Shown piece after piece: positions 60,414 to 61,030 of a DNA stretch of 64,000 bases. Numbering within the stretch: position 1 is the first letter of the stretch; the number at the start of each line of letters is the position of its first letter. This DNA comes from a virus: IMG/VR virus record IMGVR_UViG_3300028734_000011; one strand, 5' to 3'. The translations under genes and the position numbers were made by a program. The notes under the pieces were generated by a model, which worked only from the letters and a program-made list of their open reading frames with translations, was not told where the DNA came from and did not search any database.

Positions 60414-60498
60414 GAAGAAAGGCTGGAATCGAACCAGCATCAAAATGTATATTTACACGCTTTTTTGGCTATTAGTTTACCAGTTAACTTACTTTCTT
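60414..60498 (-). tRNA. tRNA-like gene, isotype unresolved (irregular anticodon arm)
   Basis: Minus-strand reading AAGAAAG-TA-AGTT-AACTGGTA-AACT-A...GCTGG-TTCGATT-CCAGC-CTTTCTT-C. The 7-bp acceptor, the 4-bp D-stem with GG loop and the canonical T-arm are all perfect. The 34 nt between are type-II-like in length, but I could not fold a canonical anticodon arm (best: CAAAA/TTTTG stem around a 17-nt loop). Confidence 0.45.
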
Positions 60499-60519
60499 CA
60501 ATTAATAATTTTTATTTTA

Positions 60520-60594
60520 GTGGAATCTTAGGAATCGAACCTAAATTGATCAATATTACATTGATGCTTTTGTGGCTCAACATCCAGTGTTCCA
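60520..60594 (-). tRNA. tRNA-like element / possible tRNA pseudogene
   Basis: Canonical 3' half: anticodon arm ATCAA-TGTAATA-TTGAT, 4-nt variable loop, T-arm TTAGG-TTCGATT-CCTAA, acceptor 3' strand GATTCCA-C. The 5' half (TGGAACA...) gives only 5/7 acceptor pairs and no clean D-arm. Confidence 0.3.
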
Positions 60595-60595
60595 A

Positions 60596-60910
60596 TTATT
60601 TTTTGAAAATACCTTTACGTATTTTCACTCTTTTTAATATATCTAATTTTGATCTTCTAATATCTTGATTTGTTACTTCTGATGATTCAAATGTATAAAC
60701 ACCTATTTCTAGTAATCTATCTCTATCATTAGTTAATTTGTCTATGGTTTTTTTAGATTCTAATTCCCATTTATATTGTAATGATTTAATAATATTTTTT
60801 GTGATTTCAAACCTATATTTACCATTATAATATCTATACATTTTGACATAACCAGAAAATATATTATTATTATAAACTTTTATATTATATAAAACTGAAT
60901 CATTAATCAT
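60596..60910 (-). CDS. hypothetical protein
   Basis: 104-aa ORF between tRNA-like genes 2 and 3. Confidence 0.35.
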   Translation of the reverse strand: MINDSVLYNIKVYNNNIFSGYVKMYRYYNGKYRFEITKNIIKSLQYKWELESKKTIDKLTNDRDRLLEIGVYTFESSEVTNQDIRRSKLDILKRVKIRKGIFKK

Positions 60911-60931
60911 ACCAATAATATTTTAAAACTG

Positions 60932-61030
60932 TAGTTAGGGCGGGACTCGAACCCGCACAAGAGATTAATCTCTGAGCTACCTCACTAATAGGACTTTTAC
61001 CTAAACGTCTGACCATTTCGCCACCTAACT
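60932..61030 (-). tRNA. long tRNA-like gene (~98 nt), type-II-like with extra arm
   Basis: Perfect 7-bp acceptor AGTTAGG/CCTAACT, T-arm GCGGG-TTCGAGT-CCCGC, GG-containing D-loop, variable-arm hairpin AGAGA-TTAA-TCTCT; an extra ~10 nt between D-arm and variable arm leaves the anticodon ambiguous (candidate loops TAAAAGT or ATTAGTG). Confidence 0.4.

What the first reader, a model, noticed from the sequence alone, without database searches (positions are those of the whole stretch)
60414..61030. Cluster of three tRNA-like genes with canonical acceptor/T-arms but aberrant internal architecture
- All three have textbook T-loops (TTCGATT / TTCGAGT) and acceptor stems, so they are clearly tRNA-derived.
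- Gene 1 has a 34-nt anticodon-plus-variable region that does not fold canonically.
- Gene 2 has a good 3' half but a defective 5' half (possible tRNA half, pseudogene or integration-site remnant).
- Gene 3 is about 98 nt with an extra arm.
- None encodes CCA, which fits the CCA-adding enzyme gene at 34770-35492.
- They may carry small introns, be decoys or substitutes for host tRNAs cleaved by anticodon nucleases, or be an attachment-site remnant.
Basis: seen in the sequence. Interest (0 to 1): 0.55.

Follow-up and report, generated by a model that had tools for sequence, protein, structure and literature searches.

The report
Conserved phage operon of tRNA mimics
A jumbo bacteriophage carries a conserved, separately promoted cluster of three tRNA-derived RNA genes that keep the tRNA top half but have rebuilt anticodon arms, so they are probably tRNA mimics rather than ordinary decoders.

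Summary
Three tRNA-derived genes lie on the minus strand: g3 61030-60932 (99 nt), g2 60594-60520 (75 nt) and g1 60498-60414 (85 nt). Rfam's tRNA model scores g1 at 40.8 and g3 at 36.8 bits (threshold 29), each with a large insertion in the anticodon region. Default ARAGORN calls none. All three are conserved in two related jumbo-phage lineages, with four doubly compensated base pairs each, mostly in acceptor and T stems, so they are maintained RNA genes. They are not pseudogenes or attachment-site remnants. No contiguous deletion restores a canonical tRNA, so the intron idea fails. g3 is a tRNA-Leu(UAA) scaffold with two hairpins in the variable region. g1 and g2 share an invariant module, AGCCAAAAAAGC (GC-closed loop CAAAAAA, A33 instead of U33). 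The same module sits in the D-loop region of two tRNA genes in distantly related phage contigs. The cluster has its own conserved palindromic promoter and a roughly 235-nt conserved leader RNA. None encodes CCA, and the phage encodes a CCA-adding-type enzyme and a Pnkp-like repair enzyme. The most likely reading is processed, non-decoding tRNA mimics involved in tRNA-centred phage-host conflict. Function is inferred, not shown.

The parts
61272..61328 (-). Promoter region. A sigma-70-like promoter (TTGCAA-16-TATAAT, 61299->61272) lies inside a TTGCAA-based palindrome/repeat (TTTGCAATTTGCAAATTGCAAA).
   Evidence: Promoter scan. Palindrome I1/I4. The element is unique in the window, with 0 expected by chance. 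It is invariant in L016 and L009.
61031..61265 (-). Conserved non-coding leader of about 235 nt between the promoter and g3. A long-range helix (AAGAGACACTTAA...TTAGGTGACTTTT) followed by a U-run is predicted. The leader abuts the 5' end of g3.
   Evidence: 93% and 85% DNA identity to L016 and L009, against 65-87% for flanking ORFs. No ORF of 40 aa or more; only a 28-aa and a 20-aa ORF on this strand. No Rfam family. The RNAalifold structure has too little variation to test. An HMM of the leader hits only these three lineages.
60932..61030 (-). g3, a 99-nt tRNA-Leu(UAA)-derived gene. It has a 7-bp acceptor, A73, a 3-bp D stem with G18G19 and a T arm. Hairpin H1 (TAGG-TAAAAGT-CCTA) is the anticodon-arm homolog with A33. 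Two extra hairpins lie in the variable region: H2 (TGAG-GTAG-CTCA) and H3 (GAGA-TTAA-TCTC).
   Evidence: Rfam tRNA 36.8 bits. Acceptor, D and T arms are nearly identical to the canonical 81-nt tRNA-Leu(UAA) in L001. 97.5% of cells are paired, with 4 double-compensated pairs, 3 in the T stem and 1 in H1.
60596..60910 (-). 104-aa ORF of unknown function inserted between g3 and g2 in this lineage only. Its ATG is 21 nt after g3 and its stop codon ends 1 nt before g2.
   Evidence: ORF list. Absent from L016 and L009. No Pfam, PHROG or NCBIfam match. The identical protein occurs on contigs from 25 blocks of the collection.
60520..60594 (-). g2, a 75-nt D-armless tRNA-like gene. It has a 5-6-bp acceptor, the module AGCCACAAAAGC, a hairpin (ATCAA-TGTAATA-TTGAT), a perfect T arm and discriminator C.
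   Evidence: ARAGORN calls it only at a reduced threshold. Orthologs are L016:7579-7655 and L009:7556-7616; the L009 copy is 61 nt and lacks the hairpin. 4 double-compensated pairs in the acceptor and T stems.
60414..60498 (-). g1, an 85-nt class II-like tRNA-like gene. It has a 7-bp acceptor, a full D arm (AGTT-AACTGGTA-AACT), an anticodon-like arm (2 G-C pairs, a bulged purine and 3-5 further pairs) with the invariant loop CAAAAAA, a variable hairpin and a T arm. The discriminator is C (U in L009).
   Evidence: Rfam tRNA 40.8 bits. The L016 ortholog is called tRNA-Phe(AAA) by default ARAGORN. 100% of cells are paired, with 4 double-compensated pairs in the acceptor, D and T stems. A bulged 7-bp stem is predicted for the L009 ortholog.
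60459..60470 (-). Module AGCCAAAAAAGC in g1, a GC-closed 7-nt loop C-A-A-A-A-A-A. It is invariant in the three lineages.
   Evidence: Alignment A6. In the window it occurs, with 0-1 mismatch, only here and in g2.
60566..60577 (-). Module variant AGCCACAAAAGC in g2. L016 has AGCCATTAAAGC and L009 has AGCCAAAAAAGC.
34770..35492 (-). 240-aa truncated class II tRNA nucleotidyltransferase (CCA-adding type). It is the candidate enzyme for adding CCA to the three CCA-less RNAs.
   Evidence: Pfam PF01743 9e-20. phrog_24229 'tRNA nucleotidyltransferase' 8.3e-69. NCBIfam CCA families at 1e-31 to 1e-15, below their full-length cut-offs.
36271..37209 (-). T4-Pnkp-like polynucleotide kinase / 3'-phosphatase, part of the RNA-repair context.
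   Evidence: Pfam AAA_33 plus PNK3P. NCBIfam PNK-3'Pase and HAD-IIIA.

Best explanation
The locus is a dedicated RNA operon of an AT-rich jumbo phage. On the minus strand it runs from a conserved palindromic sigma-70-like promoter through a conserved leader of about 235 nt to three tRNA-derived genes, g3, g2 and g1. In this lineage a 104-aa ORF is inserted between g3 and g2.

Shown:
- Selection maintains the tRNA top half of all three genes, that is, the acceptor stem, the T arm and (in g1 and g3) the D arm with G18G19.
- The anticodon arm has been rebuilt. g1 and g3 carry A-rich 7-nt loops with A33 in place of U33, on weak or bulged stems.
- The hairpin loops of g2 and g3 change between lineages.
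- One g2 ortholog has no such hairpin at all.

Inferred:
- The primary transcript is cut by RNase P and a 3' nuclease at each tRNA-like element.
- CCA is then added by the phage's own CCA-adding-type enzyme or the host's.
- The products are stable 60-100-nt tRNA mimics that do not decode in the ordinary way.
- Their most likely use is in the conflict over tRNAs. They would bind factors that recognise the tRNA elbow and acceptor while lacking a normal anticodon arm to cleave.
- Such factors could be host tRNA-targeting defence nucleases or the phage's own repair and CCA enzymes.
- As a by-product, their processing sets the ends of the leader RNA and of the adjoining mRNAs.
For: - The genes are real and under selection. 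Rfam tRNA gives 40.8 and 36.8 bits. Each gene has 4 doubly compensated pairs and 89-100% pairing, against 24-61% in slid controls. g3 and the leader are as conserved as, or more conserved than, the flanking coding genes.
- The anticodon arms are non-canonical. Default ARAGORN fails on all three. The deletion scan gives only 'AAA' readings with A33, and nothing for g2.
- The loops of g2 and g3 differ between lineages while their stems are kept. L009's g2 has no hairpin.
- g1 and g2 share an invariant 12-nt module found nowhere else in the window. The module recurs in the D-loop region of tRNA-Gln(UUG)- and tRNA-Ile(UAU)-type genes on two distantly related AT-rich phage contigs.
- The cluster has a dedicated, unique and conserved promoter.
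- No gene encodes CCA. The phage encodes a CCA-type nucleotidyltransferase, a Pnkp-like enzyme and a PPK2 fused to a HAD_SAK_2 RNA-repair domain. This toolkit is described for jumbo phages as a counter to attacks on tRNA (PMC7824862).
- Known defence nucleases cut the anticodon arm, and phage tRNAs evolve altered anticodon loops in response (PMC10264068; PMC13056530).
Against: - There are no expression, end-mapping, aminoacylation or binding data, so every functional step is inferred.
- g1's loop is invariant, as a real anticodon loop would be.
- A33 also occurs in otherwise normal phage tRNAs: L074 Phe(GAA) and L073 Cys(GCA). g1 could therefore still decode.
- Only three lineages are available, so the covariation statistics rest on three sequences per gene.
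- No specific host nuclease or binding partner is identified.
- Nothing shows that the leader is an RNA element rather than a DNA regulatory region.
Confidence: 0.45

Rival explanations
1. The genes are unusual but working decoder tRNAs. Their remodelled anticodon arms (A33, bulged or short stems) would make them resistant to host anticodon nucleases while they still read codons. For example, g1 with anticodon AAA would read the very frequent UUU codon of this 23% GC genome.
For: Otherwise canonical phage tRNAs with A33 exist: L074 Phe(GAA), called by default ARAGORN, and L073 Cys(GCA). g1's loop is invariant. The L016 g1 ortholog is called tRNA-Phe(AAA) by default ARAGORN. L016's g3 keeps U33-UAA-AA inside an 8-nt loop. 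Phage tRNAs with anticodon-loop mutations are proposed to evade nucleases (PMC10264068).
Against: g1 and g3 would both present AAA although they have different acceptor and discriminator identities (C/U73 against A73 on a Leu-type scaffold). That would give ambiguous decoding. g1's discriminator varies between lineages (C or U). The loops of g2 and g3 are not conserved between lineages, and L009's g2 has no anticodon-like hairpin. An unmodified A34 anticodon for Phe is essentially unused in nature, on established knowledge. g2 lacks a D arm and has a 5-6-bp acceptor.
Confidence: 0.25
2. The elements are pure processing punctuation, like the t-elements of plant mitochondria or mascRNA. They would exist only so that RNase P and RNase Z cut the polycistronic transcript. 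Those cuts would release the conserved leader RNA and the flanking mRNAs with defined ends.
For: The leader abuts g3. The ORF104 ATG lies 21 nt after g3 and its stop codon ends 1 nt before g2. The ORF53 ATG lies 16 nt after g1. No terminator lies inside the unit. Selection is clearest on the acceptor and T arms, which are what RNase P and RNase Z recognise. The precedent is t-elements, which have non-canonical cloverleaves and a conserved GGTTCRANYCC motif (PMC1920247).
Against: In L016 and L009 the three elements stand in tandem with no ORF between them. A single element would be enough for punctuation. The invariant 12-nt module and the invariant H2 stem of g3 are not needed for RNase P or RNase Z recognition.
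Confidence: 0.17
3. The elements are decaying tRNA pseudogenes, or remnants of an attachment site left by integration into a tRNA gene.
For: g2 has a better 3' half than 5' half. Default ARAGORN calls none of the three.
Against: All three show compensatory substitutions and high conservation across three lineages. No integrase is nearby. g3's 25-nt 3' half is found in none of the 185,579 species genomes scanned. The cluster has its own conserved promoter.
Confidence: 0.04
4. The genes are intron-containing tRNAs, with short bulge-helix-bulge or other introns, that are spliced to canonical tRNAs.
For: ARAGORN's intron mode calls g3 as Leu(CAG) with a 23-nt intron. The same 12-mer occurs inside introns of archaeal tRNAs. 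The phage encodes a Pnkp-like enzyme that could heal cleaved ends.
Against: ARAGORN's spliced g3 model has a poor anticodon stem. The exhaustive deletion scan gives no clean canonical product. The inserts of 14-35 nt are far too short for group I introns. I saw no bulge-helix-bulge geometry on inspection. Sigma-70-type promoters, intrinsic terminators in related loci and a GOLLD RNA all point to a bacterial host.
Confidence: 0.04

Closest known systems
Canonical phage-encoded tRNAs, including variants with mutated anticodon loops proposed to evade anticodon nucleases (PMC10264068; PMC11555353)
   Same: These are phage-encoded and tRNA-derived. g1 and g3 score above the Rfam tRNA threshold, and their changes are concentrated in the anticodon arm. 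The genome also carries RNA-repair and CCA-adding genes, as in other jumbo phages (PMC7824862).
   Different: The changes here are structural rather than point mutations in a normal loop. They include A33, bulged or 2-4-bp stems, a doubled extra arm, loss of the D arm and loss of the anticodon hairpin in one ortholog. The loops of g2 and g3 are not conserved. No sensible set of anticodons emerges.
t-elements of plant mitochondria and mascRNA-type tRNA-like processing signals (PMC1920247)
   Same: Both have non-canonical cloverleaves with a conserved T arm. Both sit directly against the ends of neighbouring RNAs or ORFs. Both are expected to be cut by RNase P and RNase Z and tailed by a CCA-adding enzyme.
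   Different: Here three elements stand in tandem. They also contain internal sequence, the 12-nt module and H2 of g3, that is conserved beyond what processing requires. Transcript ends have not been mapped.
tRNA-Leu(UAA), class II (for example the 81-nt gene in viral contig L001)
   Same: g3 shares a nearly identical acceptor stem, A73, D arm and T arm with it.
   Different: g3 is 18 nt longer, with two hairpins in the variable region. Its anticodon-arm loop is UAAAAGU (AUUAAAAU in L016) instead of CUUAAAA.
YrlA / bacterial Y RNAs (tRNA-like module bound by Ro/Rsr, linked to RNA repair)
   Same: Both are non-decoding tRNA mimics found in an RNA-repair gene context. Some jumbo phages encode Ro/TROVE with a tRNA-like partner (PMC7824862).
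   Different: In Y RNAs the 5' and 3' ends form the Ro-binding stem and the tRNA-like part is internal, whereas here the ends form the acceptor stem. There is no Rfam Y-RNA hit. No Ro/TROVE domain was found among the ORFs scanned.
tmRNA tRNA-like domain
   Same: g2 has an acceptor stem and a T arm without a D stem. The module reads GCC-AAA-AAA-GC (Ala-Lys-Lys-Ala) and is followed in several copies by an in-frame stop.
   Different: Neither ARAGORN nor Rfam calls a tmRNA. There is no G3:U70 pair. L016's g1 and L009's g2 have no stop before the T arm. At 61-93 nt the RNAs have no room for pseudoknots. In-frame stops are expected by chance at 23% GC.

Membership tests
tRNA (Rfam RF00005) | Covariance-model score at or above the gathering score of 29 bits | tested here: met
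   g1 scores 40.8 bits and g3 36.8 bits. g2 has no hit at E up to 10, so this holds for two of the three genes.
tRNA (canonical cloverleaf decoder) | 7-bp acceptor stem, and a 5-bp T stem with a T-loop of the TTCRANY type | tested here: met
   g1 and g3 have 7-bp acceptors and perfect T arms. g2 has a perfect T arm but a 5-6-bp acceptor.
tRNA (canonical cloverleaf decoder) | D arm with a stem and G18G19 | tested here: inconclusive
   Present and covarying in g1, and present as a 3-bp stem in g3. g2 has no D stem.
tRNA (canonical cloverleaf decoder) | 5-bp anticodon stem with a 7-nt loop carrying U33 and a purine at 37, and an anticodon conserved among orthologs | tested here: not met
   g1 has 2 bp, a bulge and 3-5 bp, with loop CAAAAAA (A33). 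g3 has a 4-bp stem with loop UAAAAGU (A33), which becomes the 8-nt AUUAAAAU in L016. g2's loop is UGUAAUA (G33, U37), UUUUAAA in L016, and absent in L009.
tRNA (canonical cloverleaf decoder) | Detected by a standard tRNA finder in default mode | tested here: not met
   ARAGORN finds 0 genes in the window. Only the L016 ortholog of g1 is called. tRNAscan-SE was not available.
Intron-containing tRNA | Removal of one contiguous segment restores a canonical cloverleaf with a sensible anticodon | tested here: not met
   All deletions of 1-50 nt were tested with ARAGORN. g2 was never called. g1 and g3 gave only A33/AAA readings or poor stems. The intron-mode call for g3 has a poor anticodon stem.
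Phage attP / tRNA-gene integration remnant | Identity to the 3' part of a host tRNA gene, with an adjacent integrase | tested here: not met
   g3's 25-nt 3' half has no exact match in one genome for each of 185,579 species. No integrase is found among the neighbouring genes.
tmRNA | tmRNA model hit, a G3:U70 alanine identity pair, and a tag reading frame ending in a stop | tested here: not met
   There is no ARAGORN or Rfam tmRNA call. g1 has G3-C70. The stop codon is missing in L016's g1 and L009's g2.
t-element / mascRNA-type processing signal | Non-canonical tRNA-like fold with a conserved T arm, placed at the boundary of another RNA | tested here: met
   The leader abuts g3. ORF104 is bracketed by g3 and g2 within 21 nt and 1 nt. 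The ORF53 ATG lies 16 nt after g1.
t-element / mascRNA-type processing signal | Mapped transcript ends coincide with the ends of the element, and non-templated C/CCA is present on the excised element | not testable with these tools
   No RNA data were available.
YrlA / Y RNA | Rfam Y-RNA hit, and a Ro/TROVE partner gene | tested here: not met
   There is no such Rfam hit. No TROVE domain is present in the 39 distinct ORFs scanned.

The most novel reading that the evidence does not exclude
The GC-closed loop CAAAAAA (module AGCCAAAAAAGC) may be a portable functional RNA module that this group of AT-rich jumbo phages grafts onto tRNA scaffolds at different positions. It sits in the anticodon-arm position in g1 and g2, and in the D-loop region of tRNA-Gln- and tRNA-Ile-type genes in L038 and L045. 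Together with g3's UAAAAG loop, it would act as an 'anti-anticodon'. AAAAG is complementary to C32-U36 (CUUUU) of the anticodon loop of tRNA-Lys(UUU). The mimics could therefore form kissing complexes with that tRNA, which is the classical target of PrrC- and PARIS-type nucleases. They would shield, sequester or sense it. This would fit with the Pnkp-like repair enzyme encoded in the same genome.
Probability: 0.06. Interest if true: 0.85.

Novelty: new variant of a known kind. Interest (0 to 1): 0.55.

Why it matters
Phage tRNAs are now seen as weapons in a conflict with host nucleases that cut tRNA. This locus suggests a further step. A phage keeps tRNA-shaped RNAs for their shape and handling (processing, CCA addition, elbow and acceptor recognition) while discarding the normal anticodon arm. 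It transcribes them from a dedicated promoter together with a conserved leader RNA.

If they are decoys or regulators, they would be a new class of phage anti-defence RNA. Standard tRNA finders miss them, so they are probably under-annotated in jumbo-phage genomes. The recurring 12-nt module gives a concrete handle for finding more copies and for experiments.

Tried and rejected
- **Miniature tmRNA.** The module reads Ala-Lys-Lys-Ala and is often followed by an in-frame stop. I rejected this because there is no tmRNA call and no G3:U70. Two orthologs also lack the stop, and stops are expected by chance at 23% GC.
- **Introns.** An exhaustive deletion scan gave no canonical product.
- **Attachment-site remnant or pseudogene.** Covariation, the absence of an integrase and the absence of a host match all argue against it.
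- **Stop-codon recoding with suppressor tRNAs.** ORF statistics give no clear support for TGA or TAG reassignment. The TAA result is uninformative at this GC content. The UUA loop of L016's g2 is not conserved in the window.
- **Y RNA.** There is no Rfam hit and no Ro/TROVE gene.
- **Other hits to the exact module plus T-loop.**
  - Most metagenome and genome hits are unrelated. They are HNH-like ORF C-termini (L029/L031/L052), intron-containing archaeal tRNAs, or plain coding sequence.
  - I accepted only L038 and L045 as related.
  - L070 is a possible mini relative.
- **L020.** It has a 120-nt acceptor-plus-T-arm element with a terminator at the syntenic position. Rfam does not recognise it and its fold is no better than shuffles, so it remains only a possible analogue.
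- **Searches that found nothing useful.**
  - Viral contigs encoding a relative of ORF104.
  - Kin of g1 or g3 in 50,697 deposited phage genomes.
  - A solved-structure relative of the 404-aa neighbour of Pnkp.
- **Module's complement.** It has no site elsewhere in the window.
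Full report
**1. What is there**

The window is about 23% GC and densely packed with small ORFs. Its only DNA matches in the deposited phage collection are weak hits to 636-735-kb uncultured phage genomes. Close relatives in IMG/VR lie on contigs of 181-330 kb. I conclude that it comes from a jumbo phage.

ARAGORN in default mode finds no tRNA anywhere in the 64 kb. Rfam at gathering threshold finds a GOLLD RNA (21681-22103, minus strand, 274.8 bits) and one tRNA at 60932-61030 on the minus strand. With permissive filters on the local region, Rfam's tRNA model also hits 60414-60498 on the minus strand. 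The scores are 40.8 and 36.8 bits against a threshold of 29. Both alignments span the whole model but place 26 and 35 nt where the model expects 13 and 9 nt of the anticodon region.

The middle candidate is called by ARAGORN only at an 80% score threshold. From the minus strand I define:

- g3: 61030->60932, 99 nt
- g2: 60594->60520, 75 nt
- g1: 60498->60414, 85 nt

The genes lie on the minus strand, like the surrounding ORFs. A permissive Rfam scan of the whole window finds no further tRNA-like gene.

**2. Are they real genes?**

The Metallophos gene just upstream (61745-62446) was used to find related loci. Two further lineages carry orthologs of all three genes:

- L009-L015, which are identical to one another and have 83% protein identity in that gene
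- L016, with 79% identity

The orthologs lie in the same order, g3-g2-g1.

| Gene | Cells paired | Doubly compensated pairs | Location of compensated pairs | Pairing when 3' partners are slid |
|---|---|---|---|---|
| g3 | 97.5% | 4 | 3 in T stem (GCGGG/CCCGC to ATAGG/CCTAT), 1 in hairpin H1 | 34-53% |
| g1 | 100% | 4 | acceptor 6:67, D stem 13:23, 2 in T stem | 24-52% |
| g2 | 89% | 4 | 2 in acceptor, 2 in T stem | 36-61% |

With only three sequences per gene these statistics are modest, but the pattern is the same in all three genes. At the DNA level g3 is 90% and 84% identical to L016 and L009, and g1 is 80% and 82% identical. Flanking ORFs are 65-87% identical. These are maintained RNA genes and not decaying copies.

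**3. Anatomy**

*g3.* It shares an almost identical acceptor stem, A73, D arm and T arm with a canonical 81-nt tRNA-Leu(UAA) on an unrelated viral contig, L001. It differs in two ways:

- Its anticodon-arm homolog is TAGG-TAAAAGT-CCTA, a 7-nt loop with A33.
- Its variable region holds two small hairpins, TGAG-GTAG-CTCA and GAGA-TTAA-TCTC, which make it 18 nt longer.

In L016 the loop is the 8-nt AUUAAAAU, so the stem is conserved but the loop is not.

*g1.* It has a full D arm with G18G19. Its anticodon-like arm consists of two G-C pairs, a bulged purine and three to five further pairs. In L009 an AA insertion on the 5' side is matched by extra U's on the 3' side. Its loop, CAAAAAA, is invariant, and a variable hairpin of lineage-specific sequence follows.

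*g2.* It has no D stem and a 5-6-bp acceptor. It carries the module variant AGCCACAAAAGC and a hairpin, ATCAA-TGTAATA-TTGAT. That hairpin's loop differs in L016 (UUUUAAA), and the whole hairpin is missing from the 61-nt L009 ortholog.

*Shared module.* The 12-mer AGCCAAAAAAGC is invariant in g1 of all three lineages and is present in L009's g2. In the window it occurs, with 0-1 mismatch, only in g1 and g2.

*CCA.* None of the three genes is followed by CCA.

**4. Introns, attachment site, tmRNA**

I deleted every contiguous 1-50-nt segment of each gene and ran default ARAGORN on the products.

- g2 was never called.
- The only recurrent call for g1 and g3 was 'Phe(AAA)'. That call reads the A-rich loops C-A-AAA-A-A and U-A-AAA-G-U as anticodon loops with A33.

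There is therefore no clean spliced product, and the inserts are far too short for group I introns.

The attachment-site idea fails on three counts:

- the genes covary
- no integrase is nearby
- g3's 25-nt 3' half matches none of the 185,579 species genomes scanned

I also considered a miniature tmRNA reading, in which the module codes for Ala-Lys-Lys-Ala. I rejected it for four reasons:

- there is no tmRNA call
- there is no G3:U70 pair
- two orthologs have no stop codon
- in-frame stops are expected by chance in AT-rich sequence

**5. A larger unit**

The roughly 315 nt upstream of g3 are almost invariant in the three lineages. They begin with a TTGCAA-based palindrome that contains a sigma-70-like promoter, TTGCAA-16-TATAAT, at 61299->61272. 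This element is unique in the window.

About 235 nt of non-coding leader follow. The leader is 93% and 85% identical to L016 and L009. It has no credible ORF and no Rfam family. A long-range helix followed by a U-run is predicted, but the sequences vary too little to test it.

The leader abuts g3. In the window lineage only, a 104-aa ORF with no detectable family is inserted between g3 and g2. Its ATG lies 21 nt after g3 and its stop codon ends 1 nt before g2. The next ORF starts 16 nt after g1. No terminator is predicted inside the unit.

The unit therefore reads: promoter, leader, g3, (ORF104), g2, g1, downstream ORFs.

**6. The module elsewhere**

A metagenome scan for the exact module followed by a T-loop returned 25 loci.

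- Four belong to the same lineages.
- Most of the rest are unrelated.
- L038 and L045 are AT-rich contigs (23% and 25% GC) that share several protein families with the window at about 24-61% identity.

Each of L038 and L045 has an 85-86-nt gene with a perfect 7-bp acceptor and T arm. Neither ARAGORN nor Rfam detects these genes. After removal of 13-24 nt containing the module, they become callable as tRNA-Gln(UUG) and tRNA-Ile(UAU). There the module sits in the D-loop region. The same small hairpin therefore occurs at different positions in different tRNA scaffolds of related phages.

A relaxed scan of viral contigs showed that A33 also occurs in otherwise ordinary phage tRNAs: L074 Phe(GAA) with loop CAGAAAA, and L073 Cys(GCA). 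A33 alone therefore does not exclude decoding.

Deposited phage genomes contain no kin of g1 or g3.

**7. Context**

The window also encodes:

- a 240-aa truncated class II CCA-adding-type nucleotidyltransferase
- a T4-Pnkp-like kinase/phosphatase, next to a 404-aa protein of unknown family
- a PPK2 fused to a 'Swiss Army Knife RNA repair' HAD domain
- PARG, HD, NS-endonuclease, MgtC and NMNAT-like proteins, and six ankyrin proteins

No Ro/TROVE protein was found. This matches the toolkit of tRNA provisioning plus RNA repair described for jumbo phages (PMC7824862).

**8. Interpretation**

*Shown.* There are three conserved tRNA-derived genes. Their acceptor and T arms, and the D arm in g1 and g3, are under selection. 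Their anticodon arms are structurally remodelled, and the loops are not conserved in g2 and g3. They have a dedicated conserved promoter and leader, they lack encoded CCA, and the phage encodes a CCA-type enzyme.

*Inferred.* RNase P and a 3' nuclease process the transcript, CCA is added, and stable tRNA mimics accumulate that do not decode normally.

I favour non-decoding mimics acting in the tRNA-centred conflict, as decoys or ligands for factors that recognise tRNA shape. Processing would also punctuate the transcript. My confidence is about 0.45. The rivals are:

- unusual nuclease-resistant decoders, about 0.25, most plausible for g1
- pure processing signals like plant-mitochondrial t-elements (PMC1920247), about 0.17
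- pseudogenes or attachment-site remnants, about 0.04
- introns, about 0.04

**9. Novelty**

Phage tRNAs, tRNA-like processing elements and tRNA mimics are all known kinds. This locus differs in three respects:

- three structurally remodelled tRNA scaffolds are combined in one dedicated operon with a conserved leader
- a 12-nt module recurs on different scaffolds
- standard tRNA finders do not detect the genes

I rate it a new variant of a known kind, of moderate interest. Its function is unresolved, and every mechanistic step still needs RNA-level data.

Noticed in passing
window 21681-22103 (-): A GOLLD RNA matches the full Rfam model (274.8 bits; threshold 150). GOLLD is usually found near phage tRNA islands, but here no tRNA or tRNA-like gene lies near it. 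The only tRNA-like genes are about 39 kb away.
   Followed up: partly
L058:3449-3500, L064:1877-1919, L068:5196-5243, L032:848-885, L037:5537-5582: The same 12-mer, AGCCAAAAAAGC, lies inside what look like introns of archaeal-type tRNAs. The genome records are Bathyarchaeota and Nanohalobium, and two further cases come from metagenome contigs. This is more often than I would roughly expect by chance. No control pattern could be run, so it remains unexplained.
   Followed up: partly
L071:~3360-3475 (also L076, L077, L086, L087): Phage contigs of about 93 kb carry an array of 14 canonical tRNAs. Between tRNA-His and tRNA-Thr there is an unannotated tRNA-like element of about 110 nt, with a 6-bp acceptor and a T arm, that ARAGORN does not call.
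   Followed up: no
L074:6254-6324 (-), L073:~6461-6494 (-): These are otherwise canonical phage tRNAs with A33 instead of the near-universal U33. L074 is Phe(GAA) with loop CAGAAAA and L073 is Cys(GCA) with loop CAGCAAA. This may be a recurrent nuclease-evasion variant.
   Followed up: partly
L020:6985-7105 (+): In the most distant relative (32% Metallophos identity) a 120-nt element lies at the position syntenic with g3. It has a 7-bp acceptor (CAGGAGG/CCTTCTG), a perfect T arm and a strong intrinsic terminator. Rfam does not recognise it, and its fold is no better than shuffled sequence.
   Followed up: partly
L029:~1240-1480, L031, L052: An HNH-like ORF (C-terminus ...CRCDLCKTAKKASNKK) runs into a tRNA 3' fragment (T arm plus acceptor strand). 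It lies just downstream of two canonical tRNAs. It may be a homing endonuclease inserted in a phage tRNA cluster.
   Followed up: no
window 60440-60451 and 60835-60846: A perfect 12-nt complementarity links g1's variable hairpin (UAUACAUUUUGA) to a site inside the lineage-specific ORF104 mRNA. My rough estimate is that such a match in this AT-rich 1.1-kb stretch is about as likely as not by chance.
   Followed up: no
window 28420-30063 (+), 36271-38427 (-): RNA-repair genes are present: a PPK2 fused to a HAD_SAK_2 domain, and a Pnkp-like gene followed by a 404-aa protein. The 404-aa protein matches only phrog_2087 (unknown function) and has no Pfam, NCBIfam or PDB sequence match. It may be a divergent RNA ligase.
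   Followed up: partly
window 4300-5318, 18637-19203, 30466-30810, 32354-33360: There are six ankyrin-repeat ORFs. A microbial PARG (12460-13260), MgtC (40934-41557) and a radical-SAM-like ORF (46216-47109) are also present. This accessory gene set is unusual for a phage, and L038 carries ankyrin paralogs too.
   Followed up: no
L070:~11218-11275 (+): A 28% GC viral contig has a 57-nt D-armless mini tRNA-like element. It has a 7-bp acceptor (GATTCAG/CTGAATC), the hairpin AGC-CAAGAAA-GCT and a weak T arm. It resembles the 61-nt L009 ortholog of g2.
   Followed up: no
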